A stretch of DNA of 63,546 nucleotides, filler included. It is 7 parts of 7 records of this genome, joined end to end, with 100 filler letters (N's around TTAATTAATTAA, not from the genome) between each part and the next. Parts side by side here need not be neighbours in the genome. Positions count along the whole stretch, not along the records: positions 37,408 to 46,422 come from SRR2962707_4726; 6 more parts are not named here. One strand, given 5' to 3'. A program made the translations under genes and the position numbers. Under the pieces are notes generated by a model. The model had not been told where the DNA came from, did not search any database, and saw only the letters and a list, made by a program, of their open reading frames with translations. This document shows positions 37,308 to 54,445 of this stretch, one piece after another (position 1 is the first letter of the stretch; each line of letters starts with the position of its first letter).

Positions 37308-37407
37308 NNNNNNNNNNNNNNNNNNNNNNNNNNNNNNNNNNNNNNNNNNNNTTAATTAATTAANNNNNNNNNNNNNNNNNNNNNNNNNNNNNNNNNNNNN
37401 NNNNNNN
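37308..37407. other. Artificial contig spacer, flanked by (GAGT)n and (CAGG)n microsatellites
   Basis: N-TTAATTAATTAA-N. Confidence 0.98.
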
Positions 37408-37496
37408 CAGGCAGGCAGGCAGGCAGGCAGGCAGCATCTCGGTTCGCCCCTCCTGCTCCTGGGCACACGCGGTGGACCGATCCAGCCATTCTCAGC

Positions 37497-40400
37497 ATGG
37501 CCACCGACTCGGAGCTCCTCGACCTCGTGAGCATCGAGCCGCAGTCCGCGGCTGATGCCGAGGCCGTGTGGGCGAAGGTTCTCGCCTTCCCAGCCGACAG
37601 GACGGCAGCTTTCAACGCCCGCGACTACGACAAGCGACTGCCATTGCACGTGGCCGCGCTTCGCCAGGCCCCCAGTCAGGTGCTACGCTTTTTGGCAACT
37701 CGTACTGTTCGGACGTATCGAGCTCACGTTCAGACCCAGCAGCAGCAGCAGCAGCAGCTTTACGATGGGCAGGATCCAGATGCTGAGACTGCCGCAGCAG
37801 CACAAGCAGTCGCAATGGAAGCCGCGGGAGGAGCTGCAACTGCTGTGCCACTCTCATACATGATTGTCGCCGGTATGTGGGACGAGGTGCTGTCAGCTGT
37901 TGAAACCGTTCCGGATGCCACGCTGGAGGCGGTGGACGTGTGGAATCGGACGCCGCTTGTGTGGGCAATTAGTTGCGGAGCTCCGGCAACAGTGCTGGAT
38001 GCTTTGGCAGCGCGACTTCCGTGTGGCGCTTGTACTTGTGAGACGCAGCAACGTCGATTCGCTCTGCATTATGCGACCGAGAGAGTGAATCGGCACCCGG
38101 AAGGACCCGATGCGGGCGCGTTGCTCGCGGAAAAGATCCTGAACGCACATCGGCCGGCCTGTCGTGAACGAGAGGCGCAGTTTGGGGTACTCCCGCTTCA
38201 TCTTGCTGCGAGTCACGGGGCACCAAAGCACTTGATTTCGGCCTTGCTGGCTGAGTTTCCCGAAGGCATTCATGTTCGAGATACAGGAGGATACTCTGTT
38301 TTGACCTACGCGGTTGGAGGCAACTTGACAGGAGTAGTACCTCCAATATCTGCGCTCGAAGAAATCATTTCGGCAATGCCGATGGCTTTGCAGCTTGGGG
38401 ACAGAGACTACCATTGCCAGCCCCTTCACTGGGCTTGCTTTGACTCCGCTCAACCTTTTGAGGTCATTGAACTTTTAGTCAATAAGTGCGTTGTCGATTC
38501 CATTTGTCGCATTGGCGAGTCAGCCCAGTCAATTGGTTGACGATCCATTATTTTCGGTGGTGACTTGTTTTCGTGCTGACTTCGGATATGTTTTAAAGAT
38601 CTTTGAGTTTGTACGTGCGATGATCAGGTATCCGGAAAGTCTGTTCGTGCGAGACAAGTCGGGAAAGCTTCCTATTATGTATGCTGCGCTCCGAGACACG
38701 TACGTCATGGTGCGCGCTGCGCTTTTCTCTTTTACTCGCTCCGTTATTGACTTTTCACGGGCTTGCGCCTGCCGCACTTGGGCTGCCTGATGTGGGATTC
38801 AGGTCAACTCGTGACTCGCATGCGGTGAGGTGTTTGGAAGTGTGCAAATATCTGTACAAGAGCATGACCAAAGCTACGACCAACAAGTCTGCAAGACAAA
38901 GCTCAGTGGGACAAGTGGGCGATGCTGCTGGCGTTGAGTCTTGGACAACTTTGCGAGCGAGTGCGAAGGCGCCACCGCTTCCAGGGCAGTCTCCAAGCTC
39001 TGATGTCACGCTTTCAGATCTTCATTCTATCTTGCAGGACGCGGTATGCCCACTTGTGAAGCGATGGGCTCAAACGCTGACATGTTACCTTGGCCGGTTC
39101 GTGGGGTTGTCATTGTGCACGTTGTCGTGATTTTTGTCGCCACCATGCCGACTTTGATCTTTTCACAACAAAACAACTTGCAGAATGCGCGTGGAATTTG
39201 CTTACACATTTCCAAATGTTTGAATGTAGGTACTCCGTGGCCCCTGGACGAGCGGTGCATGCTTCAGCAACTGCTACAGTGCGTTTGGCTCGGGACGAAA
39301 CATGCCACCCTGCAGCTCCGGTTGCACTCAAGTGGATGCGTAATCGAGATCAGTTTGTGCGAGAAATAAAGCTCCGCCAGCAGGTTGGCTGCGGAGGCTC
39401 GTACGTCGTCCCTGTTCGCGCATGGCACGTTCCCAAAAAAGAGTTTGACAATATTATGTCAGAGCTGCGCAAAAGCAAAAATGCCCTCTCGTTGAAGGCA
39501 CTGTCACCTCGTTCGCTACGAGCGCGACGGAAAGCGGTTGCAGCTGCAGCTGCCTCAATTGCAGCTCAAAAGTTTGCAATCGGTGATTTCCTTCCATCGG
39601 AGAAATGCCAAGATATATTAGATCTAAGCGACAGTGTTGACGAACCTCAGGAGGACATAATATTTACTGAAGAAGGTGTCGATATGCCTTATCTTCTCGT
39701 CATGGACAGTGGAGGACCATCGCTGTTTCACGTCCTCGCCTCCCAGCGCATCGCTGGAATTGATTCAGCCAAGTGCAGTGCCCTTTTTAAGAATCTTGTG
39801 GAACAGACTGCACGTTTGCACGCGGACGGAGTTGCTCATTGCGACATCAAGCCACGGTACGTGCAAAAGGCATGCCACGAAATGGTAGCTGTGATCAGCG
39901 TCATTGCTTACAGTTTTGAACTAAACGGCTACCTCGCGATGGATACATGACACAGCAACGTCCTTTGCAAAGAAGAAGTGACTAACAACAATGTCACGGG
40001 TGGGACTTCGCCTCATTCAAGCCATCGTAAAGAAGAAATTGAGCCAATTGAGGCAAAACATGTCTCGGACGAAGAAGGTTTCGGCAGCAACGGAAAAGAA
40101 AGTGATGTTGAGTCTTGCAATGATGAAGCTATCTTGCTAAGTCGCCCCCCTCTGCGAAGTGCAAAGAGCTTCTTGGTGCGTTCGCGAAGTGCTATGAATT
40201 GTGCATCTTGGAAATGGCCACTTGATGTTGATGTCTACGTTGGATCTACTGCTTCTCGAAAGGTCCATCGTGACCCAGAAGATAAAAAAGCAACACAGCC
40301 ATCGTTTTCGCTGCAACTGTGCGACCTTGATGCTGCTTTGCCTCTTGGATCGATTTTTCCGCGTGGAATGAAGTTTTCGAGTGCATACTTTGCACCTGAG

Positions 40401-43400
40401 GTTGCCATTTGGCACGCAGCAGACCCAACGTTGTCAATGGAGGTAGTTGGCACGCATTGTGTTCTGCTCTGTTGAGATCTGTATTTGGAGGTCAAGTTGC
40501 AAGTCGTGTCGTACTGAATTCGATGATGATGTTTACGCGCAGGACCGACCGATTCTGCAAGTTGACGAAAGCCTGGACGTGTGGTCGTTAGGCGTTGTCT
40601 TGTACGAAATCTGCACAGGTCAGCATTTATTCCCGCAAGACATGGGGAACGACAACATGGTGAATCCACTGGACATAGCACGCTTGCGTGTGTGGCTTTG
40701 CGCGGACGACGACTTGCTGCGTCATTGCTTTAGCCAACAATCAGACGAAGAAGACACGTTCATGGATACGTCCGTGGATGATATGAGTCCTCATAGTCCT
40801 GGAGGTAGCGCTCTTGGGACCCAGACCAGTGCTGCAGTACAACTCCAGCGACAAAGAAAAGATGCACAGCATCTCATCCGTTGGTGCTTGCAGCGAGACC
40901 CGCAACAACGACCATCACTGAATCAGATCCTTTCACACCGATTCTTAGGTGGGTCTCTCGTCCCACCCAGTCCAGATGTTGTAATGGCTGCCGGTGGCCC
41001 GGTGATCGCACAAAATTCTAGACGAATGAGGTACCACTATTTCATTTCGCACATGCAGGCAAGTCCACTTGTGTTCGAGGAATTTGCTGAAAATGTCAAA
41101 GTATCAGTGTCGTCACAAACGTTCCCACAGCTGTCGTTGCACCAAACTTTTGCTATTTGCGTGGTTGGGTAGGCGGAAGCGAGTGGAGACTGCGGCACTC
41201 TGTTTCATCTCTTAACAGGAATGGGATTGAAGTGCTGGCGTGACATGAACCAAGCAAATATTACTGAGGACGCTATGCGACAGGGCGTGTACGTTTGTGC
41301 TGCGCGTCGATTATCGTACCATTTTCCTTGCCAACCTTGTTCCCTTGCTTGACGAAATCATTCAATGCGGTTTGCATGCAATGGGCTTCTCATCTCATTA
41401 GTTCCTGTCTCGCCTATTTTGTTTGTCTGTCTGCGTGGGCTCATCGTAGGTATGACGCCGATGTGTTTATATTGTTTCTGACAAACAGTGTACTCTCACG
41501 CCGATTTTGTCTTATGGAGATTGGGTGGGCCATCCAGTTTCAGAAACCAATCCTCGTTGTACAGGAACAGGAAGAACGGTTCTGGCCTTGGGATATGCGT
41601 AGGTGGCAAAACGATTGCTGTACTCGTGTGCGTGGCCAATGGGTCAAGGGCGAGTTGGGGGTATCCTTTGCGGACTGTCCAACAGCCGTAAAACAATTAA
41701 TCATAGAGATCAACGATTCTGGGACTGCTCTGCCGTTTCGACGCCGCGACTTTGAAGCAGCTGCACTGGTGCACGAGATCGCAAAGCGTTCAAGTAGATT
41801 TGAAGACGTACTTTGGGGGCGTGGCCTCCCGTGGCAGCAACCAACGACGCATGTTCCTGGGTTTCGATCGGTTCGATTTCTTCGGCAATTGGACTCTCCA
41901 GCGGGTGCTGTTGTGGAGCAGGAACTCCGCAAGTCATTTGAGTACCTGTGTAGCCCGCAGTCGCTTGTGTGGAGCAGCAACAGCGCCAGTCCGAGCGAAG
42001 ATGGTTTGCCACCACAGCGGCCATCCCACGCGATTGTATTGCTGTGTTTGGAAATGATCGAGAAGGATGGCCCCGTCAAGGCGGAATTGAAGACATTGGT
42101 ATCACAAGGTGTCCCAATCCAATATATTTATGTCGCAAACAGTACGACGGGTTTCGATGCAGATGACAAAAGTCGCAGTGCGCAATTCGATGACGGGGTT
42201 GCATGGGATTTTGGTGTATTTTATAGTGGGCCTGAAAGCGAGGTAAAAGCCTCGATTTCCAGCCACGAGGCTTTGGTCTACCGTCCTTTTAACCCTCGGC
42301 CTCGGCGATATGAGCACAAGGCTCTTGTGCGAGAGCTTTTGAAACGCATGCAGCCTGATGCTTCAGGTCACGAGATGGACTGTCCTGCAGCCTCACCTCG
42401 CTCCGTCGGAGCACAGAAGAACGGGCCCGAACCCCGAGTTGAAGAGGACAAAGGAGGAGCGGAGGTTTCTGCTGCGGCAAAAAGTTGGTTGCACTTAACG
42501 AAGCGGCCAGCCTTCAGCGGTAGCGACGTAGTCATCGAGGCTGCGAATGGCCACCACACACACACCGTAATACTTTGTCACGGCCTGTACTGCACAGGGC
42601 ATGATTTTCAGCTCCTTCCTTTTGTTGTTGACACTTTGATGAAACGTATCGAACAGCTCAACACGACAGCAGGCATTTCAAATTCGACAAAACAGTCATC
42701 AGTTCCGGATGCGACACGTTCGCAAATGGCTGCGCCGTGGGGCGGTGTGCGCTACATCTTCCCAACAGCTCCAAAACGGACAATATCTTGGCCAGTGGGT
42801 ACGTCTTTGAAGGTGCTTACTTCGCCGTTCTCTTGCATTGTGTTTGGCGGTCTTCGGCCTGTCTGACGCACGACTTGCAACAGAATGATGATGGGTTTTG
42901 AATGGATTGTGTGCAAGGTGACGAAGCCGGTGTTCATGCGTGGTTCAACTACTTTTCCGACGAAACAGGCAACGATGCGTACGACGATATTGATGTCGAA
43001 CAGCTGGACGCAGCAACAACGAAACTTCATGCAATTCTTGACTACGAGTTTGCAGCGCTGGATCCACGTGGTGCGTAAAGTCACATGTGCGGTTTTGATG
43101 TCTCGGGTTGGAGAGCTTCGAACCCTGAACAATGTCGTGCGATTGTCTTAGGAAGCGGAGAGAACAACAATATCAACGCTGTCCTGCTTGGTGGATGCTC
43201 ACAGGGAGGTTTGTTTTCTTCAAACATGCTTGCCTTGAATTGCGTGCTGAAACGTGATTTTCCGCACTCACTCCAATGGATCTTCGTCGCAGTGCATGGC
43301 TAAGAATACCCACAAACTCTTGGATTGAACAACGCTGGTAAATACATTATGATGCTTGGGTAGGAACCATGGCTCTGCATGCTGGACTAACATATGCAGA

Positions 43401-44030
43401 AAAACAAAAGCGGAGAAAACGCAACCGACACCATGGGCCACCGCGACACACACTGGCGGCGATTGTGGCTCTGCGCACCATTTTATTGGAAGAAACTCCG
43501 CTGTACGGAGGCTCAGCGCCTCCAATTCGAATATTTTCTGCTGCAGAAGACGAGGTTTGATGCACTGCGCTAGTGGTACTCAGGAATGCGAAACCTGGTC
43601 GTCGTGCTTGTTTTGCTAACAGTTGGTATCGTGCAGGTTTTCGTTGGCGCCCTTCAGAGACGTAGTTTTGCTCGGCTTGCCGCCTGTGGCGACGCAGACG
43701 TTGAGTGGCATGTGGAGCCCGGACTCACTCATGTTCGTGTGCACTTCGTGTGCACTACTGTGAACCACGAGCGTATCGACGCCGTAATGGTTCACACTGT
43801 GATATTTGTTTTGGACAGCATGCATAATTACTGTGCGGTGTCGGTGATTGTCCCAGGTGATGGATTCTGTTATGGAGCTGTGGTACGTCGCTAAAGTTAT
43901 GGCGATTCAATTCTTTGGAGTCCCAGCAAATCATCCTGGACTCGACGCTGCTCTCGGTCGAAAGCAATGGGAGGGGTGGAAAACCACCAGCGAAGTGCCG
44001 CCGCGTCGGCAGCTACCAGTCTGCACTTAA
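37497..44030 (+). CDS. Ankyrin repeats - Ser/Thr kinase - TIR - degenerate TIR-like - phospholipase/carboxylesterase (APT-like alpha/beta hydrolase) fusion, ~1,706 aa, 13 exons
   Basis: Exons 37497-38485, 38628-38699, 38803-39096, 39230-39856, 39956-40442, 40543-41058, 41173-41288, 41450-42798, 42918-43070, 43152-43208, 43364-43554, 43637-43732, 43857-44030 sum to 5,121 nt in frame. Motifs: LPLHLAA; VALK..E, HCDIKPRN, DLD, APE, DVWSLG; FISH...CWRDM...DVFILFLT..SRRFCLMEI; HGL, FPTAP, GCSQG, D, H. Confidence 0.8.
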
Positions 44031-44102
44031 AAGAATTTCAATAAAAATTACCAATCCAAAATTCAACATACCATGAACGTGCCTGCAGACAACAGCCGCG
44101 GT

Positions 44103-45995
44103 TTACATCAGTTTTTGTGCTTGTCTTCTGCACATGTATTTGGGATTCGTTGCAATGAATACTATGCTGTCAGTCCCATACACCCTTTCAGCGTTCACAA
44201 CGTTGAAATGATCAGACAACAGACAATTCAAACGCTTTGTGTGCTCGTGTGATCGGTGCCCAGCATTTGCAGCAACAACACAACCTTCGGAGCTGCTGCA
44301 AAGTTTGCCAATGTCAGACCAAAGTTGAGACTTGAACACACACTTTGCTAAGGATCGTTCTGACAAGAGGTCGACAACAATGCCTGAAAAGCAAGCGCCC
44401 TCGCGAGGACACCCCTGATCGGAGGCCAGTTCGGCAGCTTTTGTGCAGAAAGACAGAGCATCTGCGTGGTGGACTGTGGTCGACAATATTTCGCCAGTGG
44501 CCTGGTTGCGTGGACAAAAGTAGCGTGCAGCTCGGATGACTTGTTCGTCGATCTCAACACATTCAACTGTTCCACCTTTTTCGACAATAGCCCGCGACAT
44601 GAGACCACCTCCAAACCCAAGAACGAGGTAATGATCGGCCTGCTTGTTTGTGCATGAGCTCTTGGGTTGCAGTGTCTCGTTTTCAAAAGTCCCGTTGGCA
44701 CGTGAGGCACTAAAGAGAGCATCGACAATGGTTTTTCGGTATCCGCACAAACTCCACAAGGGCATTGGTTGACAGAGCGGCACGATAGACGTTCGGTTTT
44801 TGGCCGTACGACCATCGCAAACACTGGGTGGTGGACATGCTGGTAGCGCAAACAACATGTCAGACTCTGCGAATCCTTGTTCCCACAAACCGGAGGGCTC
44901 AAAGAACAATCTCCGAAGCACGGTCGATACAGGTTTCGAAGGCTCACTTGACACATGGCGCTGTTTGCGCAACACCGTGGGCTTCAAACGAACATCAACC
45001 ACAGCAACACCTTTGGGGTGCACATACGATACTGCATGAAAGAGGACATTGAATGCATCTGGTTGCCTTCGCTGCACTTCCTGCAGCAGAGACCAAACGT
45101 AAGTCGCACCATCGAGGAGTCCGTGAACAGAGTTGTCGCTTTCGGCTTGATTGGTTTCTTTTTCGAATGGCTGCAATTTCGGTTGCTCTTGGTCATGGCA
45201 TGGTGTAAACAGTGCGGAGATGGCAATGATACTGTCCAAACAATCCTCCGCGGCTTCAGCAACATCTCGGTTGCTACTGCGGCGAAGAGCAAGAAGAGGA
45301 ACCAACACGTTACATTCTATCAACCAGAGTATGGTCCGTGCAGGGAGAACACTCTTGTTCCGAGAGTTTGAGGTTTTCAGGTTGCGTTTGCGCTCGACCA
45401 CGCAACGTTCTGCACGGCGAAGGGTCGATTTGGGGGTGACGGCACTATGACAATGGCAGAGATGCAAATACAGTAGATCCAACGCAGCAGCAATGCGGTC
45501 GTCATCGGCATCATCATCGCTGTCGTCGTCCTCGGTTTCAACAGCAATGCCGCCAACATTGGTCTTAGGATGTGCCTTGTCGATGGCGGATTGGGATGCA
45601 CGCTGCAAAAACCTTGCATTTCGGTGCCTGTTGAGGTGTGTATTGCCCCACAGGCTTGCCACGACGTGTGCTAGCAAGCAGCGGTAACGCCCTGGAGGCA
45701 AATCTGCCCACGGAGCGGATTTCCCATCGCGAATGCAGTCTGCTTGAAGGTCAAGCTCTGTGCTTGAAAAGATCCACTCCGGTTGCCCAGTTAGGGAAAA
45801 AGAGTCAAAGGCCGCAGCCAAAGCCACTGGAAGAGAAGAATTCATCACCGCTGCATCCTCATACCCGGTTGTGGGAGCAGCAGCGGCGCAACCTCTCTTC
45901 GAAATGGGAGACCCCGGTCCACGCAACTTTCGTTTAAAGCAAGGCTGAGCATCTCTGCCAGCACTCGGCGAGCAGGCACCAGTGCTGCTCGCCAT
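44103..45995 (-). CDS. Protein with C-terminal class I SAM-dependent methyltransferase (spermidine-synthase-like) domain
   Basis: YLVLGFGGG, VECVEIDEQVIRAARYF, HADALSF, GIVVDL. N-terminal region not recognised; start uncertain (frame open to 46118). Confidence 0.7.
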   Translation of the reverse strand: MASSTGACSPSAGRDAQPCFKRKLRGPGSPISKRGCAAAAPTTGYEDAAVMNSSLPVALAAAFDSFSLTGQPEWIFSSTELDLQADCIRDGKSAPWADLPPGRYRCLLAHVVASLWGNTHLNRHRNARFLQRASQSAIDKAHPKTNVGGIAVETEDDDSDDDADDDRIAAALDLLYLHLCHCHSAVTPKSTLRRAERCVVERKRNLKTSNSRNKSVLPARTILWLIECNVLVPLLALRRSSNRDVAEAAEDCLDSIIAISALFTPCHDQEQPKLQPFEKETNQAESDNSVHGLLDGATYVWSLLQEVQRRQPDAFNVLFHAVSYVHPKGVAVVDVRLKPTVLRKQRHVSSEPSKPVSTVLRRLFFEPSGLWEQGFAESDMLFALPACPPPSVCDGRTAKNRTSIVPLCQPMPLWSLCGYRKTIVDALFSASRANGTFENETLQPKSSCTNKQADHYLVLGFGGGLMSRAIVEKGGTVECVEIDEQVIRAARYFCPRNQATGEILSTTVHHADALSFCTKAAELASDQGCPREGACFSGIVVDLLSERSLAKCVFKSQLWSDIGKLCSSSEGCVVAANAGHRSHEHTKRLNCLLSDHFNVVNAERVYGTDSIVFIATNPKYMCRRQAQKLM

Positions 45996-46422
45996 CACAA
46001 CGAAGGGCTCACCGAGCGCAACTTTGAGTGTGATGGCATAATCAGCAGCAGTCAATCCCGCTTCGAGCAGAAGGAGCTTAGACGCTACGGACCGTTTCGT
46101 TGGCGTGTCTTTCCCCACTTTTTCGCCTGAATATCACGACCCTTCCTTGTTTTACTCACCTACGACGGCCCTTCCACTCAACTTCCCACTCAACAGGGGT
46201 GAACAACAACCCACTGCCGCATCCAGCCAACGTGCATCCGTAATTGACCCCCCCAGTCAGTCACTCGCTTGGTGACAGCGAGCCTTGTTGTGAAGTGAAG
46301 CACAGGAAAAAAAATGAAAAAAAAAATAAAAATTGCGCGGGCTCGAAAATGGTTTGGGTGTAGAAGCTGTTCGAGGGCGGTATGCCCCTTTGAAAAAAAC
46401 AAAAAACAAAAAACAAAAAAAC

Positions 46423-46522
46423 NNNNNNNNNNNNNNNNNNNNNNNNNNNNNNNNNNNNNNNNNNNNTTAATTAATTAANNNNNNNNNNNNNNNNNNNNNN
46501 NNNNNNNNNNNNNNNNNNNNNN
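46423..46522. other. Artificial contig spacer
   Basis: N-TTAATTAATTAA-N. Confidence 0.98.
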
Positions 46523-46753
46523 GCTCTTATGACGAGCTGCTTTGTTTTTGTGATATAGGCCTTTATCAGCTGCTTTGTCTAGCTTAGATGTAGCTAGAAC
46601 GTAAGCTGCTTGTGCATCAGCTTGATTACCTGCTTCGATGGCTGCATCTACTTTTTTCAAGTATGTGCGAACCATAGAGCGCAGGCTACCATTATGAGCG
46701 CGACGTTTGATCGCCTGGCGCGCACGTTTTTTTGAACCGGCGGAATTTGCCAC
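46523..46753 (-). CDS. rpsT: 30S ribosomal protein S20 (3'-truncated)
   Basis: GTG start; [28 protein letters not shown]...[10 protein letters not shown]. Confidence 0.95.
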
Positions 46754-46981
46754 AGTCTGGCTCCTTTCGTTTATATTAGGAAACGGCACAGCACTGTGCT
46801 GCGTCGTGAAATCAATGTCAAGTATGACTTCATAATCTCGCGGCGGATTTTACCAGTTTTTGAGCATGCCACAACCCCATTATACAAATAATCACCAAAT
46901 CTACTGGCTTATTTCCCTAACTTGTTGTGGATTCAGGTGGTATTCTTGCTCCAATTTGTTGGAATGGTTAACAAAATTGCT

Positions 46982-48550
46982 ATGTCGGAAAATAATATCA
47001 CCCCGAAAAAAACATCGAAAAATAACTCATTATTGCGATCAGGTGTTTTGGTGTCCGTGTGCACTTTCTTGTCCCGTATCTTGGGGTTGGCTCGAGATTC
47101 GGCATTAGCGTATGTGCTGGGGGCAAGCGCAGGTGCGGATGCGTTTTATGTGGCGTTTAAAATCCCCAATTTTTTCCGTCGTTTATTTGCTGAAGGGGCG
47201 TTTGCTCAGGCGTTTGTTCCTGTGTTGAGCGACTATCGAGTGAACGAGACGAAAGAAGAGGTTCGCGCTCTTATTTCCGCAGTGTCTGGCTCCTTGGCGT
47301 TAGTGCTGCTGTTGATTACCGCGTTGTTTATGGTGTGCGCTCCGTGGGTGGTGTATCTCTTTGCGCCTGGGTTTGCAGCAGACGGCGAGCAGGCACGGTT
47401 AGCGTCTGAGCTGCTAACCATTACTTTTCCGTATTTGCTGTTTATTTCACTTACGGCATTGGCGGGTGGCATTCTCAATGCCCATGGCGAATACGCAGTG
47501 CCAGCCATTACGCCCATTTTTCTCAACATTAGCTTATTGGTTGCTACCTTGGTGTTTGCGCGCAATGCCTTGGACGCAGAAACTGCCGTGGCATGGGGGG
47601 TCTTTTTTGCAGGGCTGGTTCAATTGCTCTTCCAAATGCCCTTTCTGGCGCGCCTCAAATTACTGCCAATGCCGTCTCTTCAGTTTCGTCACCCAGGTGT
47701 GAAGCGCATTTTGATCTTGATTGGTCCGGCGTTGTTTGGGGTCTCGGTCGGGCAAATCAATTTGCTCTTAGACACTGTGTTGGCGTCGTTTCTGCAAACG
47801 GGCAGTATTACGTGGCTGTATTTGTCTGATCGTTTGTATGAATTGCCGCTGGGGATTTTTGCGATTGCGATTAGTACCGTGATTTTGCCTTCTTTGTCGC
47901 GCAGTTTTGCAGGCAAAGACCCGAAAGCATTTTCGGATACATTGGATTGGGCGCTGCGAATTTTATTGTTGATCGCAGTACCGTCGGCATTGGCATTGTT
48001 TATGTTGGCTGAGCCATTGATTGCGACCATCTTTTATCGGGGTGAGTTGACCGTGCATGATGTGACGAAAGCCGCGCAGAGTTTACAGGCGTATTCTTTA
48101 GGACTGATCTTTATGATGCTCATTAAGGTGCTGGCGCCTGGGTATTACGCTCGCCAAGATACGCGCACACCAGTGCGAATAGGGATTATCGCGATGGTGG
48201 CCAACATGGTGTTTAATCTGATTTTAGTGTGGCCTTTGGGCCATGTTGGATTGGCCTTGGCGACCAGTTTGTCGGCGGCGTTAAATGCATTTTTGTTGTG
48301 GCGCGGGTTGCGAAAGCAGGGTCATCATCAGTTTTCTCATCATTGGAAATTGATAACGAGGGTGTTAATCGCGGCAACGGCGGCCTTGGCGGTGTGGATC
48401 TATTTCTTTCTGCAACAGGGTATGGTGTGGACGCAAATGACTGATCTGCATCGCGTTGGTGAGGTGCTTCTTGTGGTTGTGGTTGGTGTGACTGTCTACG
48501 TAGGTGCCGCGGTACTGGTGGGGTTGCGACCGTCTTCTTTCAAGCACTAG
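46982..48550 (+). CDS. murJ: Lipid II flippase MurJ (MviN)
   Basis: SRILGLARD, DAFYVAFKIPNFFRRLFAEGAFAQAFVPVL, DRLYELPLG; canonical position between rpsT and ribF. Confidence 0.96.
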   Translation: MSENNITPKKTSKNNSLLRSGVLVSVCTFLSRILGLARDSALAYVLGASAGADAFYVAFKIPNFFRRLFAEGAFAQAFVPVLSDYRVNETKEEVRALISAVSGSLALVLLLITALFMVCAPWVVYLFAPGFAADGEQARLASELLTITFPYLLFISLTALAGGILNAHGEYAVPAITPIFLNISLLVATLVFARNALDAETAVAWGVFFAGLVQLLFQMPFLARLKLLPMPSLQFRHPGVKRILILIGPALFGVSVGQINLLLDTVLASFLQTGSITWLYLSDRLYELPLGIFAIAISTVILPSLSRSFAGKDPKAFSDTLDWALRILLLIAVPSALALFMLAEPLIATIFYRGELTVHDVTKAAQSLQAYSLGLIFMMLIKVLAPGYYARQDTRTPVRIGIIAMVANMVFNLILVWPLGHVGLALATSLSAALNAFLLWRGLRKQGHHQFSHHWKLITRVLIAATAALAVWIYFFLQQGMVWTQMTDLHRVGEVLLVVVVGVTVYVGAAVLVGLRPSSFKH

Positions 48551-48627
48551 ATTCGTTTCATGGCGTCATCGATGCTTCTTGCTGAGGTTGTACTAGTTCT
48601 GGCCTACCTTCAGGTGGTGATCTGCTA

Positions 48628-48633
48628 TATAAT
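48628..48633 (+). promoter_or_regulatory. Putative sigma70 -10 box upstream of ribF
   Basis: TATAAT 48 nt before the ATG; GAGG RBS; no clear -35. Confidence 0.35.
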
Positions 48634-48681
48634 CTCGGTTATTTTTTCGGCACTGGGTGGGATAGTCTTGAACGAGGTACT

Positions 48682-49605
48682 ATGGAGTTAATTCGCGGTA
48701 TTCATAATATCCGTTCAAAGCATAAAGAATGTGTGCTGACGATAGGGAATTTCGACGGCGTTCATCGTGGCCATCATGCCATCTTGAACCGCGTCAAAGC
48801 GCTGGCGGAACATTATCAAGTGCCGGCAGGCATTATGATTTTTGAACCTCAGCCAAGGGAGTTTTTTACGCCCGATAAAGCGCCAGGTCGTATTAGTCGA
48901 CTGCGTGATAAAGTGCACTTCTTGAAAGGGCAGGGCATTGATTATGTGTTGTGCTTGCCGTTCAACCCTAAGCTTCAGCAATTGGATGCGAAGGCTTTTT
49001 GCCAGCAGATTCTATTTCAAGGATTGTCCGTTCGTCATTTGGTGGTAGGAGACGATTTTCGTTTTGGCTGTGATCGCCAAGGGGATTTCGATTACCTTAA
49101 ACAATTTGGTGAGAGTCATGGCTTTGATGTGGAAAATACCCCATCGGTATTGAACGAGGCCGGTGAGCGTATTAGCAGTACCTTGGTGCGCCAAGCATTG
49201 GAAACTGGTGATATTGACGCCGCCCAAGAAAACATGGGTCATCCGGTCATTTTGGGTGGGCGAGTCATCGGTGGTCAGAAGTTGGGTCGCACATTGGGCT
49301 TTCCTACGGCTAACGTTCATTTAAAAGGGACTCAGCCTGCGTTGTCAGGTGTGTATGCGGTGCAACTTGACGTTGCAAGCGTAACGCACAATGGTGTGGC
49401 TAATATTGGTGTGAGACCAACCGTACAAGGCAAGACGCCGATATTAGAAGTGCACCTTTTTGATTTTAATGGTGATCTGTACGACAAATATGTTCAGGTA
49501 ACCTTCTGTCGCTTTATCAGGGCAGAGCGAAAAATGGCCAGCTTAGATGCGCTGGAAAAACAAATTCAATGTGATAAAGAAGAAGCAATACTCTTTTTTG
49601 CCTAA
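48682..49605 (+). CDS. ribF: Bifunctional riboflavin kinase / FAD synthetase
   Basis: TIGNFDGVHRGH, VGDDFRFG, ISST, GRTLGFPTAN, LEVHLFDF. Confidence 0.97.
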   Translation: MELIRGIHNIRSKHKECVLTIGNFDGVHRGHHAILNRVKALAEHYQVPAGIMIFEPQPREFFTPDKAPGRISRLRDKVHFLKGQGIDYVLCLPFNPKLQQLDAKAFCQQILFQGLSVRHLVVGDDFRFGCDRQGDFDYLKQFGESHGFDVENTPSVLNEAGERISSTLVRQALETGDIDAAQENMGHPVILGGRVIGGQKLGRTLGFPTANVHLKGTQPALSGVYAVQLDVASVTHNGVANIGVRPTVQGKTPILEVHLFDFNGDLYDKYVQVTFCRFIRAERKMASLDALEKQIQCDKEEAILFFA

Positions 49606-49644
49606 TCAGTGAACTGATGATCTTTGAGGATAAATCGATAAACC

Positions 49645-52467
49645 ATGAGTGATTATAAACCGACGCTTAATTTGCCAAAGACAGACTTCCCTATGCGTGG
49701 AGACTTGGCAAAACGTGAACCTGCAATGCTGAAGCAATGGCAGGATATGGATCTATACAACAAAGTACGCGAAGTCAGTAAAGGCCGTAAATCTTTTATT
49801 CTTCATGACGGCCCTCCGTACGCAAATGGCAGTATTCACATTGGTCACGCGGTTAACAAAATCCTCAAAGATATTATTGTTAAATCAAAAACCGTCAGTG
49901 GTTTTGATGCGCCTTACATTCCAGGTTGGGATTGTCACGGCTTGCCGATTGAGCACAAAGTAGAACAGTTGATAGGCAAAGCGGGTACCAAAGTATCGTA
50001 CAAAGAATTCCGTGCCAAATGTCGCGAATACGCTTACACGCAAATCGAACAACAGAAAAAAGATTTTATCCGTTTGGGCGTAATGGGCGATTGGGAAAAC
50101 CCATACCTTACGATGAACTTCCAAACCGAAGCGAACATTGTTCGTGCCTTGGGTAAGATTGCTGAAAACGGCCACCTCGTTAAAGGCTTTAAGCCAGTTT
50201 ACTGGAGTGTGGTGGGTGGTTCTGCCTTGGCTGAAGCCGAAGTGGAATACCAAGATAAAACGTCATTGTCATTGGATGTGCGCTACGCGCCTCAAGATGA
50301 AGCGGCGTTGTTGGCAAAATTCTCTGATGTAGAAGGCGAAGGCAAAGTATCGGTTGTTATCTGGACAACGACGCCTTGGACCTTGCCTGCTAGCCAAGCG
50401 GTTTCTGTTCACCCTGAGTTTAACTATGCCCTTGTTGAAGTGGACATGGGCTTGGGTAAAGAGCGCTTAATCGTTGCTGAAGACATGGTTGAAGGTTTGA
50501 TGGTGCGCTACGGTGTGTCTGATTTCCGTATTGTGGGTCGTACTATCGGTGCGGATCTACAAGGCACTGTCTTGAATCACCCATTCTTGGAACGTGATAT
50601 CCCCGTTATTCTTGGCGAGCACGTGACCACCGAAGCCGGTACAGGTTGTGTGCATACCGCACCAGACCATGGTGTAGACGATTTCAACGTCGGCCGTGAA
50701 AATGGCATTGGTACCATTAACCTAGTACAAGACAATGGCGTGTATTCAGATGCCGCTGGTGAATTTGCTGGCTTGCATGTTTATAAAGTAGATGGCGCAG
50801 TGCTTGAAGCATTAAACCGAAACAACGCCTTGGTTTTCGAATCGAAAATTTTCCACAGCTACCCTCATTGCTGGCGTACTAAAACACCATTGATCTTCCG
50901 CGCGACACCACAGTGGTTTATCAGCATGACCAAAGAAGGTTTGTTGGATGCGGCCAAACACGCAGTTGAAGGTGTGAAGTGGGTGCCAAGCTGGGGACAA
51001 AATCGCATGGAAGGGATGTTGAATAACAGCCCTGATTGGTGTGTGTCTCGTCAACGTACTTGGGGTGTTCCGATTGCTTTGTTTATCAACAAAGAAACGC
51101 AAGAATTGCACCCAGAAACACCACGTTTGATTGAAGAAGTTGCCAAACGTATCGAGCAAGAAGGCATTGATGCTTGGTTCGAAATGGACGCAGAAACCCT
51201 ATTGGGTGATGAAGCGGCAAAATACAGCAAGGTGACTGACACGCTAGACGTATGGTTTGACTCTGGGGTAACGCATTACTCTGTCATCGATCAGCGTGAC
51301 GAATTAAGTTTCCCGGCCGATTTGTATTTGGAAGGTTCTGATCAGCACCGTGGTTGGTTCCAATCGTCGTTGAAAACGTCCATCGCGATTCGCGGTGTGC
51401 CTCCGTACAAGCAAGTGCTTACCCATGGCTTTACAGTGGATGGCGACGGTCGCAAGATGTCGAAATCATTGGGTAACGTATTGTCACCTCAAAAAGTGAT
51501 GGATACCTTAGGAGCGGACATCATTCGTTTGTGGGTAGCGGCAACCGATTACACCACTGAAATGACTGTTTCTGATGAGATTCTGAAGCGTGTTGCAGAT
51601 TCATACCGTCGTATTCGTAATACCGCGCGCTTTATGTTGTCTAACTTAAGTGGCTTCAATCCAGCAACGGATGTTGTTGCAAGCAAAGACATGTTGGCCT
51701 TGGATCGCTGGATTGTAGATCGTGCCGCTTTGTTGCAAACAGAGTTGGATACGGCTTACAACGAATACCAATTCCACACAGTTAATCAGAAAATCCAAAA
51801 CTTCTGTTCTGTGGATCTAGGTGGTTTTTACCTAGATATCATCAAAGACCGTCAGTATACGACTCAGCCAAACAGCTTGGCTCGTCGCTCTGCGCAGACG
51901 GCCTTGTACCATATCATGGAGGCCTTCACTCGCTGGATTTCGCCAATCTTGAGCTTTACCGCGGATGAGTTGTGGCACGCTATGCCAGGTGAGCGAGTTG
52001 AGTCTGTCTTTTTAGAAACATGGTACGAAGGATTAGAAACGTTGTCTGGTGATGAGCCAATGGGACGTGAATTCTGGAAGCACGTGCTGGAAGCTAAAGT
52101 CGCTACTAACAAGGTATTAGAAGCCGCACGCAGCGAAGGCAAGATGAAGGCCAGCCTAAGTGCAGAAATCACCTTGTATTGCGATGAGGCATTGCAAGCG
52201 ACATTGAGTCGTCTTGATGATGAGTTACGCTTTGTGCTGATTTCTTCTGATGTAAAAGTATTGCCATTGGCGCAAGCGGGTGATGATGCCGTAGCAACAG
52301 ATCTTGATGGGCTAAAAGTTGTGGTAGCGTTAAGCAGCAATGAGAAATGTGTTCGCTGCTGGCACCACCGTCCAGAAGTTGGTCAGCGTGCCGAACACCC
52401 AGAATTGTGTGATCGTTGTATTTCCAATTTACCAGATGGAGAAGGTGAACAACGCCTTTACGCCTAA
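49645..52467 (+). CDS. ileS: Isoleucyl-tRNA synthetase (type 1)
   Basis: [35 protein letters not shown]-terminal CVRCW...CDRC zinc site. Confidence 0.98.
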
Positions 52468-52973
52468 TGACCATTCGTTTTGTATGGCAACAAGTCCAGC
52501 GCTGGTGGGCGCTGGCACTTGTTATATTTGCAGTAGACTGGCTGACTAAGCAATGCATTGAAGCAAGCATTGCTTATGGTCAGACTGTCCCTGTTCTTCC
52601 CTTCTTTGATTTAACGCTGCGTTATAACACGGGGGCTGCTTTTAGCTTCTTAGCAAATGCAGGCGGCTGGCAGCGTTGGTTCTTCTCCTTTATCGCATTA
52701 GCTGTCGTAATCGGCATTAGTTGGCGCTTGGTTAAAGTGGCCGCTACGAATCGTTGGGAAGCCTTGTCACTGAGCCTCATATTAGGCGGTGCAGTTGGCA
52801 ATTTATATGATCGATTGGTTTATGGTCACGTTGTCGATTTTCTAGAGTTTCATTGGCAACAGTCTTGGTATTTTCCTGCTTTTAATGTGGCGGACAGTGC
52901 CATCACCATTGGTGTTATTTTGATGTTGTTAGAAAGTGTGCTGGCAAAGCCACAGAAAGGCCCGAAAGAATGA
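52467..52973 (+). CDS. lspA: Lipoprotein signal peptidase II
   Basis: NTGAAFSFL, GGAVGNLYDR, VVDFL, FNVAD. Confidence 0.96.
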   Translation: MTIRFVWQQVQRWWALALVIFAVDWLTKQCIEASIAYGQTVPVLPFFDLTLRYNTGAAFSFLANAGGWQRWFFSFIALAVVIGISWRLVKVAATNRWEALSLSLILGGAVGNLYDRLVYGHVVDFLEFHWQQSWYFPAFNVADSAITIGVILMLLESVLAKPQKGPKE

Positions 52974-53401
52974 ATGTAATTACCACGAATAGTCAGGTGA
53001 CTTTGCACTTTGAGTTGTCTTTAGAAGATGGCCAAATAGTCGACTCTAATTTCTCTCATGAGCCCGCTCGGTTTGTGTTCGGCGATGGCAACTTACTGCC
53101 TGCTTTTGAAGAAGTATTGCTGGGCATGAGCGTGGGCCAAGAAGGTCGTTTTGAAATGTCGCCAGAGCAAGCCTTTGGTGCGCGAAATGAAAGCAATATT
53201 CAGCGTATGCCGCGTTCTCAATTCTCGATGGATATAGAAGAGGGCATGGTGGTGTCGTTTGCTGATGCCAGCAAAAACGAATTGCCAGGCGTGATCGCAG
53301 AGATCAGTGACAATGAAGTGCTGGTGGATTTTAATCACCCCTTGTCTGGTCGCACCTTAACTTACCGAGTACAAATTGTAGCGGTAGAGGAGGCAGCATG
53401 A
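52970..53401 (+). CDS. fkpB: FKBP-type peptidyl-prolyl isomerase (SlpA)
   Basis: [27 protein letters not shown]; lies between lspA and ispH. Confidence 0.92.
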
Positions 53402-54348: not shown

Positions 54349-54354
54349 GTGCTT

Positions 54355-54445
54355 TCATTTTTATTATAAAAAAATGAATCTTTTATTAAAAAGTACTTGC
54401 GCTAAAATTTTCACGATGTATTATACGCACCCACTGACACGGACA
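54355..54445 (+). promoter_or_regulatory. rRNA operon P1-type promoter (rRNA genes beyond contig end)
   Basis: AT-rich UP element, -35 TTGCGC (54397-54402), 16-bp spacer, -10 TATTAT (54419-54424), GC discriminator, then CCACTGACACGGA as in the E. coli rrn P1 start region. Confidence 0.75.

What the first reader, a model, noticed from the sequence alone, without database searches (positions are those of the whole stretch)
37497..44030. Single-polypeptide ankyrin-kinase-TIR-serine hydrolase: candidate self-contained immune/cell-death module in a protist
Seen: 13 exons splice into one ~1,706-aa frame that the ORF track shows only as fragments, and the TIR start appears only after a GC-AG intron (FISHMQ|AEASGD). 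The kinase keeps its Lys, alphaC Glu, HCDIKPRN, DLD and APE motifs. The TIR keeps the Glu in SRRFCLMEIGWA. The hydrolase keeps GCSQG Ser, Asp (AEDE) and His (GLTH). Established: that Glu position is catalytic in SARM1, plant and bacterial TIR NADases. TIR-derived signals activate lipase-like EDS1/PAD4 in plants, and phospholipases act as effectors in bacterial CBASS. Inference: sensor, switch, NAD+-consuming signal generator and lipid/deacylase effector are fused in one chain. I do not know of this architecture being described.
Basis: partly seen in the sequence, partly recalled or inferred. Interest (0 to 1): 0.82.

Follow-up and report, generated by a model that had tools for sequence, protein, structure and literature searches.

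The report
Ankyrin-kinase-double-TIR-hydrolase fusion gene in a protist
This is a real, spliced protist gene encoding one 1,677-residue protein that joins ankyrin repeats, a protein kinase, a SARM1-like TIR domain, a hidden second TIR domain and a serine hydrolase; it looks like a self-contained immune or cell-death switch, but nobody has tested its function.

Summary
A transcript-derived public protein (P0013, 1,677 aa) maps letter for letter onto window 37497-44030 (+). The GC-AG intron at FISHMQ|AEASGD is real. One 5,144-nt spliced contig joins all 14 exons, so this is a single mRNA.

All quoted motifs are present: kinase K486, E497, D657, D755 and E780; TIR E1028; hydrolase S1522, D1587 and H1620.

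New here:
- TIR1 is structurally closest to SARM1 (Z 15.9, rmsd 2.0 Å). This was measured on a model of a ~50%-identical relative.
- The "linker" is a cryptic second TIR domain (Z 11.7 to SARM1) without a conserved catalytic Glu.
- The kinase-TIR-TIR core defines a family of 266 clusters. Its N-terminal repeats vary (Ank, LRR, WD40, WWE). Source labels place members in stramenopiles, Rhizaria and Picozoa.
- The hydrolase is an APT/SOBER1-type Abhydrolase_2 domain, not EDS1- or patatin-like. It was added once, in one small clade.

"Kinase TIRs" were named, uncharacterised, in choanoflagellates in 2018. I found no paper describing the full architecture. Function is inferred: a kinase-gated, SARM1-like NADase with an attached deacylase. 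This is a new variant of a known kind, of moderately high interest.

The parts
37497..44030 (+). Whole coding region: 14 exons, 5,031 coding nt, 1,677 codons plus TAA stop
   Evidence: P0013 maps letter for letter. Start and stop codons checked. One spliced 5,144-nt contig covers it.
37497..38485 (+). Exon 1 (aa 1-330, ankyrin repeats)
   Evidence: Pfam Ank_2/Ank_5
38628..38699 (+). Exon 2
38803..39096 (+). Exon 3
39230..39856 (+). Exon 4 (kinase N-lobe to HCDIKPR)
39956..40175 (+). Exon 5 (insert between catalytic loop and DLD)
40176..40262 (+). Intron 5: 87 nt, in frame, no stop.
   Evidence: Spliced out in P0013, P0001 and the X1 contig. Translation.
40263..40442 (+). Exon 6 (DLD, APE)
40543..41058 (+). 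Exon 7 (kinase C-lobe, start of TIR1: YHYFISHMQ)
   Evidence: Pkinase 53 bits on this fragment
41059..41172 (+). Intron 7, the only GC-AG intron (GCAAGT...GGGTAG)
   Evidence: One search shows a joint skipping 114 nt whose cut can shift by up to 4; only the +2 cut gives a near-canonical GC..AG.
41173..41288 (+). Exon 8 (TIR1, AEASGD...)
41450..42798 (+). Exon 9 (rest of TIR1, all of TIR2, linker, start of hydrolase)
   Evidence: Used as query.
42918..43070 (+). Exon 10
43152..43208 (+). Exon 11 (GCSQG nucleophile elbow)
43364..43554 (+). Exon 12 (ends with AEDE)
43555..43636 (+). Intron 12. It is retained in transcript isoform P0001 (1,589 aa), which then stops after AEDEV and lacks His1620.
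   Evidence: P0001 mapping, TGA after 43557
43637..43732 (+). Exon 13 (ends with GLTH)
43857..44027 (+). Exon 14 (C-terminus), followed by TAA at 44028-44030
37611..38863 (+). Ankyrin-repeat region (aa 39-374; spans introns 1 and 2)
   Evidence: Pfam Ank_2 47.1 bits, Ank_5 44.2 bits, Ank_3, Ank, Ank_4
39095..40950 (+). Protein kinase domain (aa ~452-930; spans introns 3-6). It has a ~90-residue insert before DLD and no canonical GxGxxG loop.
   Evidence: Pfam Pkinase 79.2 bits, cutoff 31.7. Motifs and family conservation. Nearest solved chain is TTK/Mps1, E 1.4e-6.
41029..41840 (+). TIR1 (aa ~957-1135; spans introns 7 and 8), SARM1-like, with the catalytic-position Glu
   Evidence: Pfam TIR_2 26.6 bits, just under the 28-bit cutoff. 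Fold of the equivalent part of relative P0002: SARM1 TIR Z 15.9, rmsd 2.0 Å, 129 aligned.
41862..42353 (+). TIR2 (aa ~1143-1306): a cryptic second TIR domain that Pfam does not detect
   Evidence: AlphaFold2 model of window:41847-42365, pLDDT 88.1. VIA-align: SARM1 Z 11.7, TIR-1 11.1, IL-18Rbeta 10.9, Cat1 10.3. Foldseek best hits are TIRs.
42543..43946 (+). Abhydrolase_2 (APT/carboxylesterase-type) serine hydrolase domain (aa ~1370-1650; spans introns 9-13)
   Evidence: Pfam PF02230 41.3 bits, cutoff 23. PDB: APT1 E 0.006; profile hits 4f21 1.6e-7, 3cn7 2.4e-7, APT1 1.7e-6.
39330..39332 (+). Codon of kinase Lys486 (VALK)
39843..39845 (+). Codon of kinase catalytic-loop Asp657 (HCD)
40323..40325 (+). 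Codon of Asp755 (DLD, in place of DFG)
41047..41049 (+). Codon of TIR1 Ser963 (FISH). By my own reading, not a tool alignment, this is the conserved strand-A serine whose phosphorylation blocks TIR NADases in a 2025 preprint.
   Evidence: Ser in 40 of 41 family sequences. Preprint 10.1101/2025.04.09.647920, abstract and section 5 read.
41517..41519 (+). Codon of TIR1 Glu1028 (SRRFCLMEIGWA), at the catalytic-Glu position
   Evidence: Glu in 60 of 60. Invariant in alignment A2. Aligned to the Glu of Cat1 CWDEL.
43199..43201 (+). Codon of hydrolase Ser1522 (GCSQG)
43549..43551 (+). Codon of hydrolase Asp1587 (AEDE)
43730..43732 (+). Codon of hydrolase His1620 (GLTH)
44040..44045 (+). AATAAA, 10 nt after the stop. 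The spliced contig ends at 44051.

Best explanation
Shown:
- One nuclear gene of a heterotrophic stramenopile (source label Incisomonas marina) is transcribed and spliced into a single mRNA.
- The mRNA encodes a soluble 1,677-aa protein with five parts: ankyrin repeats, a Ser/Thr-type protein kinase, TIR1, TIR2 and an Abhydrolase_2 serine hydrolase.
- The kinase keeps its catalytic Lys, Glu, Asp, Asn and Asp residues.
- TIR1 is SARM1-like in fold and keeps the catalytic-position Glu1028.
- TIR2 is a cryptic TIR fold without a conserved Glu.
- The hydrolase keeps an intact Ser1522/Asp1587/His1620 triad.
- The kinase-TIR1-TIR2 core is shared by a protist family whose N-terminal repeats vary (Ank, LRR, WD40, WWE).
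- The hydrolase was added once, in the small clade that contains this gene.

Inferred mechanism:
- The ankyrin repeats hold the protein in an off state or sense a ligand or partner, much as the ARM repeats do in SARM1.
- The kinase acts as the switch. It could work by autophosphorylation or by phosphorylating TIR1, for example at the conserved strand-A Ser963.
- Once released, TIR1 self-associates, with TIR2 as a built-in non-catalytic TIR partner. TIR1 then cleaves NAD+ (or a related nucleotide) through Glu1028. That would deplete NAD+ and/or make an ADP-ribose-derived signal.
- The C-terminal hydrolase removes an acyl group from a lipid or a lipidated or acetylated protein, as a second output or a feedback step.
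- The biological setting is most likely cell-autonomous defence or stress-induced cell death.

The confidence given (0.45) is for the inferred mechanism as a whole; the anatomy under 'Shown' I hold at about 0.95.
For: Gene and mRNA:
- Exact 14-exon mapping of P0013.
- All 13 junctions lie in one 5,144-nt contig.

Domains: Pkinase 79.2 bits, Ank_2 47.1, Abhydrolase_2 41.3, TIR_2 26.6.

Kinase: residues are conserved across 16 long relatives.

TIR1:
- The model of relative P0002 has most 10-residue blocks of residues 1-497 at pLDDT >90.
- Foldseek gives 26 matches at E<=1e-3, led by the plant TIRs RPP1 and RUN1, then TIR-1, SARM1 and SPARTA.
- VIA-align gives SARM1 TIR Z 15.9, rmsd 2.0 Å, 129 of 131 residues, and TIR-1 Z 15.7, over model residues 174-338.
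- The family profile aligns its Glu with the Glu of the NADase Cat1.
- Glu1028 is Glu in 60 of 60 sequences. Ser963 is Ser in 40 of 41. R1103, R1104 and E1107 are kept in 62 of 62.

TIR2: the window's own sequence folds at pLDDT 88.1. The top 14 VIA-align rows are all TIR-containing chains, Z 8.8-11.7.

Hydrolase: its closest stand-alone-length relative, P0194, aligns end to end with SOBER1 (1.1e-13) and carboxylesterase 1AUO (4.2e-13). P0194 positions S141, D192 and H224 are invariant in A3 and map to S1522, D1587 and H1620.

Family:
- 266 clusters at E<=1e-3.
- Pkinase is present in 21 of 21 long members scanned. N-termini vary: LRR_6, Ank, WD40, WWE, C1.
- The hydrolase-bearing proteins form one clade, support 0.996.

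Other:
- No membrane-span-like segment; the highest 19-residue hydropathy is 1.56.
- Phosphorylation of the conserved TIR serine blocks NADase activity in plants and SARM1 (preprint 10.1101/2025.04.09.647920, abstract and section 5).
Against: - No activity has been measured for any member. NAD+ cleavage, kinase activity, esterase activity and any immune role are all inferred.
- TIR_2 on the window's own protein is just below Pfam's cutoff (26.6 vs 28 bits).
- The TIR1 fold was tested on a relative that is ~50% identical overall, not on the window's own chain.
- Single-sequence PDB search with TIR1 found no TIR, only a weak BlsM hit at E 1.4. The profile hits to TIR chains are marginal (E 0.0013 and 0.038).
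- The EIGWA..KPI motif also resembles CMP hydrolases of the nucleoside 2-deoxyribosyltransferase-like fold, so the substrate need not be NAD+.
- The kinase lacks a canonical glycine-rich loop.
- The hydrolase part of the model was not confident (pLDDT <50).
- PADLOC gave only weak ThsB hits (E 0.006-0.007).
- Nothing links the gene to infection. The window's spacers remove any real genomic context beyond 9 kb.
Confidence: 0.45

Rival explanations
1. It is a signalling scaffold, not an enzyme. The two TIR domains act only as protein-protein assembly modules that bring kinase domains together. That would be a fused receptor-adaptor-kinase pathway, as proposed for the choanoflagellate 'Kinase TIRs'. 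The output would be phosphorylation, not NAD+ cleavage.
For: - Richter et al. 2018 proposed exactly this streamlined role for Pkinase+TIR proteins (PMC6040629, passages read).
- The kinase catalytic residues are conserved family-wide.
- Adaptor TIRs (IL-18Rbeta, IL-1RAcPb, MyD88, TIRAP) are among the structural neighbours of TIR2.
Against: - Glu1028 is kept in 60 of 60 sequences, together with an invariant RRR..E motif. Such conservation is expected of an active site rather than a mere interface.
- TIR1's best structural neighbours are the enzymatic TIRs SARM1, TIR-1, SPARTA, AbTir and plant TIRs.
Confidence: 0.2
2. It is a SARM1-like metabolic stress executioner or NAD+ homeostasis regulator with no role in sensing pathogens. 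The ankyrin repeats and kinase would read the cell's metabolic or calcium state, and the TIR would tune NAD+ or make calcium-mobilising cADPR-type messengers for ordinary physiology such as feeding, encystment or motility.
For: - TIR1 is structurally nearest to SARM1 and TIR-1 (Z 15.9 and 15.7). From recalled knowledge, their best-known role is in neuronal NAD+ metabolism.
- One family member carries EF-hands (P0211, precomputed Pfam PF13499/PF00036).
- Relatives of this gene carry an N-terminal FAD-dependent oxidoreductase domain (P0004, DAO 42.4 bits).
Against: - The N-terminal repeat types vary across the family (Ank, LRR, WD40, WWE). That is the pattern seen in diversifying receptor families rather than in a housekeeping regulator.
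- The distribution is patchy.
Confidence: 0.18
3. The hydrolase is not an effector. It would be an integrated regulator or decoy: a domain that keeps the protein off (for example by removing an activating acyl mark), or a bait that detects pathogen factors aimed at APT/SOBER1-type hydrolases.
For: - The nearest solved relatives include SOBER1. From recalled knowledge, not tested here, SOBER1 suppresses an effector-triggered response in plants.
- The hydrolase occurs only in one small clade of a family that otherwise works without it.
- An isoform lacking His1620 exists (P0001).
Against: The Ser/Asp/His triad and the surrounding motifs are invariant across the 6 sequences aligned. This argues for a working enzyme, although a working enzyme can still be a regulator.
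Confidence: 0.1
4. The fusion is an artefact. Separate neighbouring genes would be joined by transcript mis-assembly or read-through, so no single polypeptide exists.
For: - Both lines of transcript evidence are assemblies, not single long reads.
- Run X1 is only guessed to be RNA and may be the same data as the EukProt transcriptome.
Against: - All 13 introns keep one frame with no stop over 5,031 nt.
- Domain boundaries fall inside exons: exon 7 holds the kinase end and the TIR1 start, and exon 9 holds TIR1, TIR2 and the hydrolase start.
- The same order of domains occurs as single uninterrupted ORFs in ~50%-identical relatives on other contigs (P0003, P0004, P0005, P0038).
Confidence: 0.02

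Closest known systems
SARM1 / C. elegans TIR-1 (repeat domain - oligomerisation domain - TIR NADase)
   Same: - TIR1 is closest in fold to the SARM1 and TIR-1 TIR domains (Z 15.9 and 15.7, rmsd 2.0 and 1.9 Å, 20-23% identity).
- The catalytic-position Glu is kept.
- An N-terminal helical-repeat domain precedes the TIR, as the ARM domain does in SARM1 (recalled).
   Different: - No ARM or SAM domains were found by Pfam.
- Instead it has ankyrin repeats, a protein kinase, a second TIR and a hydrolase.
- Homology beyond the TIR fold is not shown.
Choanoflagellate 'Kinase TIRs' and 'Kinase TLRs' (Richter et al. 2018, PMC6040629; passages read)
   Same: - A Pkinase domain directly followed by a TIR in one chain, without a membrane span.
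- Also uncharacterised.
   Different: - They were reported as unique to choanoflagellates. This family carries stramenopile, Rhizaria and Picozoa labels.
- Whether the two are homologous was not tested, because no choanoflagellate sequence was in hand.
- Tandem TIR, ankyrin repeats and hydrolase are not described there.
Plant TIR-NLRs and TIR-only proteins (RPP1, RUN1, ROQ1, SNC1)
   Same: - TIR fold (Foldseek E 6e-6 to 1e-3; Z 12-14).
- A S-x-x-[W/F]-C-x-x-E helix motif, seen here through the Cat1 alignment.
- The logic of a variable repeat sensor plus a central switch plus a TIR.
   Different: - The switch is a protein kinase, not an NB-ARC ATPase; no NB-ARC was found in P0013.
- The domain order is reversed: repeats N-terminal, TIR C-terminal.
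- No EDS1-family partner is known or implied.
Acyl-protein thioesterase 1/2, LYPLAL1, SOBER1 and bacterial carboxylesterases (Pfam Abhydrolase_2)
   Same: - Pfam PF02230 is above its cutoff.
- GxSQG nucleophile elbow and an aligned Ser/Asp/His triad.
   Different: - It is fused to a signalling protein rather than free-standing.
- It has extra inserts, including a basic KQKRRKRNRHH stretch after the nucleophile helix.
- The substrate is unknown.
Bacterial TIR defence proteins (Cat1, SPARTA TIR-APAZ, AbTir, ThsB)
   Same: TIR fold with the catalytic Glu: Cat1 aligned at E 0.038; SPARTA Z 13-14 and AbTir Z 12.6.
   Different: - Eukaryotic, intron-bearing and fused to a kinase.
- Only weak PADLOC ThsB hits (E ~0.007).
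- No relative was found in the viral contig scan.

Membership tests
TIR domain superfamily (enzymatic TIRs) | TIR (flavodoxin-like) fold | tested here: met
   TIR1 was tested on the model of relative P0002: SARM1 TIR Z 15.9, rmsd 2.0 Å, 129 aligned; Foldseek prob 1.00 to RPP1, RUN1, TIR-1 and SARM1. TIR2 was tested on the window's own sequence: SARM1 Z 11.7 and 13 further TIR-containing chains on top.
TIR domain superfamily (enzymatic TIRs) | Pfam TIR_2 score above the gathering cutoff (28 bits) | tested here: inconclusive
   P0013 scores 26.6 bits, E 9.2e-6, just below the cutoff. Of the 21 long relatives scanned, 12 exceed it, for example P0100 at 46.4 bits.
TIR domain superfamily (enzymatic TIRs) | Catalytic Glu on the helix after strand C | tested here: met
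   TIR1 Glu1028 aligns with the Glu of Cat1 CWDEL and of the 9m0n TIR. It is Glu in 60 of 60 sequences. In TIR2 the equivalent position (E1217, my manual alignment) is Glu in only 15 of 62.
TIR domain superfamily (enzymatic TIRs) | NAD+ (or nucleotide) cleaving activity that depends on self-association | not testable with these tools
   Needs an enzyme assay.
Eukaryotic protein kinase superfamily | Pkinase profile above cutoff, plus catalytic Lys, Glu, HxD Asp, Asn, DFG-type Asp and APE | tested here: met
   79.2 bits against a 31.7 cutoff. K486, E497, D657, N662, D755 (DLD) and E780 are present and conserved in relatives.
Eukaryotic protein kinase superfamily | Canonical glycine-rich loop GxGxxG | tested here: not met
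   The region reads RYSVAPGRAVHASATATV. The family pattern is RY..G..VH.S.T. This is atypical, but the other catalytic residues are intact.
Abhydrolase_2 (APT / carboxylesterase) family | Family profile above cutoff | tested here: met
   PF02230 scores 41.3 bits against a cutoff of 23.
Abhydrolase_2 (APT / carboxylesterase) family | Ser-Asp-His triad at the family positions | tested here: met
   GCSQG aligns to GFSQG of APT1. Through relative P0194, Ser, Asp and His align with SOBER1 and 1AUO. They map to S1522, D1587 and H1620, which are invariant in 6 of 6 sequences.
Abhydrolase_2 (APT / carboxylesterase) family | Alpha/beta-hydrolase fold | tested here: inconclusive
   The hydrolase part of the P0002 model had pLDDT <50 because the alignment was shallow. 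No second model was made.
Choanoflagellate 'Kinase TIRs' | Pkinase followed by TIR, with no transmembrane segment | tested here: met
   Domain order. The highest 19-residue hydropathy is 1.56, inside an ankyrin helix. Definition from PMC6040629.
Choanoflagellate 'Kinase TIRs' | Sequence homology to the choanoflagellate proteins | not tested
   No choanoflagellate member was retrieved. The protein libraries searched carry few names.
   Pfam on P0013 at E<=0.01 lists Abhydrolase_2 only and no lipase_3. That EDS1 is of the lipase_3 type is recalled.
NLR / STAND receptors | NB-ARC or NACHT NTPase between sensor and effector | tested here: not met
   No such family was listed for P0013. A kinase occupies that place.

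The most novel reading that the evidence does not exclude
The gene belongs to an unrecognised, widely scattered class of protist cytosolic receptors. In this class a protein kinase, rather than a STAND NTPase, couples variable repeat sensors (Ank, LRR, WD40, WWE) to a SARM1-like tandem-TIR NADase. It would be an NLR-like immune or cell-death system built on a different switch. In the Incisomonas lineage the receptor has additionally captured its own deacylase, so that sensing, switching, NAD+ signalling and a lipid or protein-deacylating output sit in one chain.
Probability: 0.3. Interest if true: 0.8.

Novelty: new variant of a known kind. Interest (0 to 1): 0.62.

Why it matters
TIR domains are the most widely shared immune module of life, yet almost all functional knowledge comes from animals, plants and bacteria. 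A recent atlas states that several purely eukaryotic TIR clades are uncharacterised (PMC13142454, section 5 read).

This gene gives a concrete, expressed and clonable example from a free-living bacterivorous stramenopile. Its SARM1-like TIR is hard-wired to a kinase, a second TIR and a hydrolase. If the TIR is an NADase gated by the kinase, three questions become directly testable:
- how TIR enzymes are controlled by phosphorylation;
- what a tandem TIR does;
- whether deacylation is a TIR-linked output.

It would also show that receptor families of the form "variable repeats + switch + TIR" arose with a kinase as the switch. If the TIR is not an NADase, the family is still an unstudied kinase family of marine protists.

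Tried and rejected
- Whole genome: none is held for this window, so paralogues outside the window could not be sought. tblastn of P0013 against the window found only the gene itself.
- RNA runs: no listed holder is on record as RNA. The one run (X1) is only guessed to be RNA. It nevertheless holds the spliced form.
- Single-sequence PDB search with TIR1: no TIR hit, only Blasticidin M at E 1.4.
- Profile A3 against PDB: swamped by kinases, because the long rows kept their columns. It was replaced by P0194 alone.
- Hydrolase fold: the first AlphaFold2 job gave pLDDT <50 for that part.
- Self-association of TIR1-TIR2 (2 copies, residues 955-1310): complex prediction gave no verdict, score 0.00. 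This is not evidence either way.
- PADLOC: generic kinase hits and weak ThsB hits only.
- Viral contigs: 5 pattern matches, none confirmed.
- Earlier findings of this scan: three look-ups, nothing.
- Literature: seven searches found no paper describing an Ank-kinase-TIR-hydrolase protein or a TIR-APT fusion. 'Kinase TIRs' occurs only in Richter et al. 2018 and its preprint. The word 'kinase' does not occur in the main text of the TIR atlas preprint. Its supplementary tables, which may list this very protein and its TIR clade, were closed.
- Rejected idea, middle region as a disordered linker or a ligand sensor such as SAVED, STING or Macro: it is a TIR fold.
- Rejected idea, neighbouring genes as context: the window is a mosaic of seven pieces.

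Full report
**The gene model**

The + strand between 37.4 and 44.1 kb shows only ORF fragments. Pfam run on those fragments sees ankyrin and kinase pieces only.

I searched the large protein collection with the biggest fragment (exon 9) and looked for longer proteins. This returned a 100%-identical transcript-derived protein (P0001, 1,589 aa). Its cluster also holds a second isoform, P0013 (1,677 aa). The source labels both as EukProt EP00750 Incisomonas marina, a bigyran stramenopile.

A script that threads the protein through the window, allowing only GT/GC..AG introns, places P0013 without mismatch. The result is 14 exons from the ATG at 37497 to the TAA at 44028-44030. Twelve introns are GT-AG.

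It is 87 nt and in frame, and adds 29 residues, which explains 13 exons and ~1,706 aa.

P0001 differs from P0013 by retaining intron 12. That isoform stops after AEDEV and loses the catalytic His.

One public run holds 72% of the sampled words of the stretch. A single 5,144-nt contig from that run skips all 13 introns and runs from at least 37450 to 44051, just past an AATAAA. That run may be the same data as the EukProt transcriptome, so I count it as one line of evidence, not two.

Independent support for the fusion comes from relatives that are ~50% identical. They carry the same domain order as single uninterrupted ORFs on other contigs (P0003, P0004, P0005, P0038).

**The domains**

Pfam on P0013 gives:
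- ankyrin families (Ank_2, 47.1 bits);
- Pkinase, 79.2 bits;
- TIR_2, 26.6 bits (cutoff 28);
- Abhydrolase_2, 41.3 bits (cutoff 23).

No membrane-span-like segment is present.

*Kinase.* It keeps Lys486, Glu497, Asp657, Asn662, Asp755 (DLD instead of DFG) and Glu780 (APE). These residues are conserved in 16 long relatives. It lacks a canonical glycine-rich loop. It has a ~90-residue insert before DLD. It is only distantly related to solved kinases: TTK/Mps1 is the best, at E 1.4e-6.

*TIR1.* An AlphaFold2 model of the 825-residue relative P0002, built with a 57-sequence alignment, is confident over the kinase C-lobe, TIR1 and the following domain; most 10-residue blocks of residues 1-497 have pLDDT >90.
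- Foldseek against the PDB returns plant TIRs (RPP1, RUN1, ROQ1, SNC1), TIR-1, SARM1 and SPARTA at prob 1.00.
- The VIA-align second look places model residues 174-338 on the human SARM1 TIR domain (Z 15.9, rmsd 2.0 Å, 129 of 131 residues, 20% identity) and on C. elegans TIR-1 (Z 15.7).
- A profile of 40 kinase-free fragments aligns the family's ...LSRpFClkEigwA with Cat1's ...LKSDWCWDELEQA, Glu on Glu (E 0.038), and with a TIR-TPR protein (E 0.0013).
- In a 62-sequence alignment, Glu1028 is Glu in 60 of 60 sequences that have a residue there. Ser963 of the strand-A FISH motif is Ser in 40 of 41. An RRR..E motif (R1103, R1104, E1107) is invariant.

By my reading, not a tool alignment, Ser963 corresponds to the conserved serine whose phosphorylation blocks NADase activity of plant TIRs and SARM1 in a 2025 preprint (abstract and section 5 read).

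*TIR2.* The ~170 residues after TIR1 have no Pfam match but are conserved throughout the family. I folded the window's own sequence (41847-42365), giving pLDDT 88.1. A search of 48,161 representative chains that does not depend on Foldseek puts 14 TIR-containing chains on top: SARM1 Z 11.7, TIR-1 11.1, IL-18Rbeta 10.9, IL-1RAcPb 10.6, Cat1 10.3. Foldseek agrees weakly. At the position that I align by hand with the catalytic Glu, only 15 of 62 sequences have Glu. TIR2 is therefore probably non-catalytic. Its own conserved residues (W1257, F1259, E1278, R1283, E1293) are unexplained.

*Hydrolase.* GCSQG aligns with GFSQG of acyl-protein thioesterase 1. A family profile reaches Francisella and Pseudomonas carboxylesterases, APT1 and LYPLAL1 at E 1.6e-7 to 2.3e-6. 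P0194 is the closest short relative (267 aa, 35% identical to the query). It aligns end to end with SOBER1 and carboxylesterase 1AUO, including the Asp and His. Those columns are invariant in 6 of 6 sequences and map to Ser1522, Asp1587 and His1620. The fold itself was not confirmed, because that part of the model has pLDDT <50.

**The family**

HMMER with exon 9 against 1.84 billion representatives finds 266 clusters at E<=1e-3 and 136 at E<=1e-10. Nearly all match the TIR1-TIR2 part.

I scanned 21 long members with Pfam:
- 21 have Pkinase.
- 19 list TIR_2. One list was cut at 25 families and one had none at the threshold.
- The N-termini differ: ankyrin, LRR_6/LRR_4, WD40, WWE and C1.

A profile search for long proteins gives 30 hits:
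- 29 carry kinase families.
- 26 carry PF13676 (TIR_2).
- 11 carry ankyrin families.
- 5 carry PF02230 (Abhydrolase_2).

Source labels place members in Paulinella micropora, Picomonas judraskeda and two Picozoa assemblies, besides Incisomonas.

In a FastTree of the TIR1-TIR2 columns, the hydrolase-bearing proteins plus the 84%-identical fragment P0048 form one clade with support 0.996. I kept 56 of 62 sequences; six short ones were dropped. The hydrolase was therefore captured once.

**Interpretation**

What is shown is the anatomy. The roles are inferred by analogy. Repeat domains gate SARM1 and NLRs. All known TIR enzymes need self-association. Kinases can silence TIRs through the strand-A serine.

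I therefore read the protein as a kinase-gated, SARM1-like NAD+-cleaving switch with a built-in TIR partner and an added deacylase output. It most likely acts in defence or stress-induced death. My confidence in the functional part is about 0.45.

The main rivals are:
- a pure scaffold for kinase signalling, as proposed for choanoflagellate 'Kinase TIRs';
- a metabolic rather than immune SARM1-like role;
- a regulatory or decoy role for the hydrolase.

**Comparison with the known**

The hydrolase is of the APT/carboxylesterase type.

The kinase-TIR pairing was named in 2018 as 'Kinase TIRs', said to be unique to choanoflagellates, and left uncharacterised (PMC6040629, passages). This family shows the pairing well outside that group. 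Homology between the two was not tested.

A 2026 atlas of eukaryotic TIRs built on EukProt notes whole uncharacterised eukaryote-only clades but does not mention kinases in its main text (PMC13142454, section 5 and passages). Its supplements were closed.

Seven literature searches found no description of the full architecture, of a tandem TIR behind a kinase, or of a TIR-APT fusion.

I rate it a new variant of a known kind.

Noticed in passing
window 7011-7110, 14048-14147, 23076-23175, 37308-37407, 46423-46522, 54446-54545: The window is a mosaic. Six identical 100-nt spacers (N44-TTAATTAATTAA-N44) cut it into seven pieces of 6.9-14.1 kb. The gene studied lies on piece 5 (37408-46422), and its ATG is only 89 nt from the piece's start. 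Genes across a spacer are not real neighbours.
   Followed up: yes
window 46523-54445: Piece 6 looks bacterial. Its GC is 0.469, against 0.52-0.59 for the other pieces. It holds co-directional, intron-free ORFs for MurJ (471 bits), a bifunctional FAD synthetase/riboflavin kinase, isoleucyl-tRNA synthetase with the zf-FPG_IleRS finger, and LytB/IspH. It is probably a contaminant or prey/associated bacterium in the assembly. A gene transfer is not excluded.
   Followed up: partly
window 37308-37407 versus protein P0016: A gene call from another public record of this locus (P0016) reads real residues (MQVTASAGKA...) upstream of GRQAGRQ, where the window has N. That record therefore has sequence in place of the spacer.
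   Followed up: no
proteins P0004, P0023 and others (relatives, not in the window): The closest metagenomic relatives exist in a 1,900-1,935-aa form. It carries an extra N-terminal FAD-dependent oxidoreductase (DAO) domain in front of the Ank-kinase-TIR-TIR-hydrolase (42.4 bits; cluster list).
   Followed up: no
window 43202-43450 (aa ~1523-1553): The hydrolase of the window's protein has a basic insert (KQKRRKRNRHHGPPRH) right after the nucleophile helix. The relatives lack it. It could be a nuclear-localisation-like or lipid-binding patch.
   Followed up: no
window 44103-46133 (-), 23124-24908 (+), 54566-55777 (+): Other ORFs noted: a spermine/spermidine-synthase-like domain on the minus strand, 73 nt downstream of this gene's stop codon and converging on it; a Myb DNA-binding protein; and a protein with three WW domains.
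   Followed up: no
protein P0213 (relative, not in the window): One weak hit of the TIR1-TIR2 profile (E 1.1e-10) is a EukProt protein whose only precomputed Pfam family is NB-ARC. This hints that related TIRs also occur with a STAND switch in some protist.
   Followed up: no
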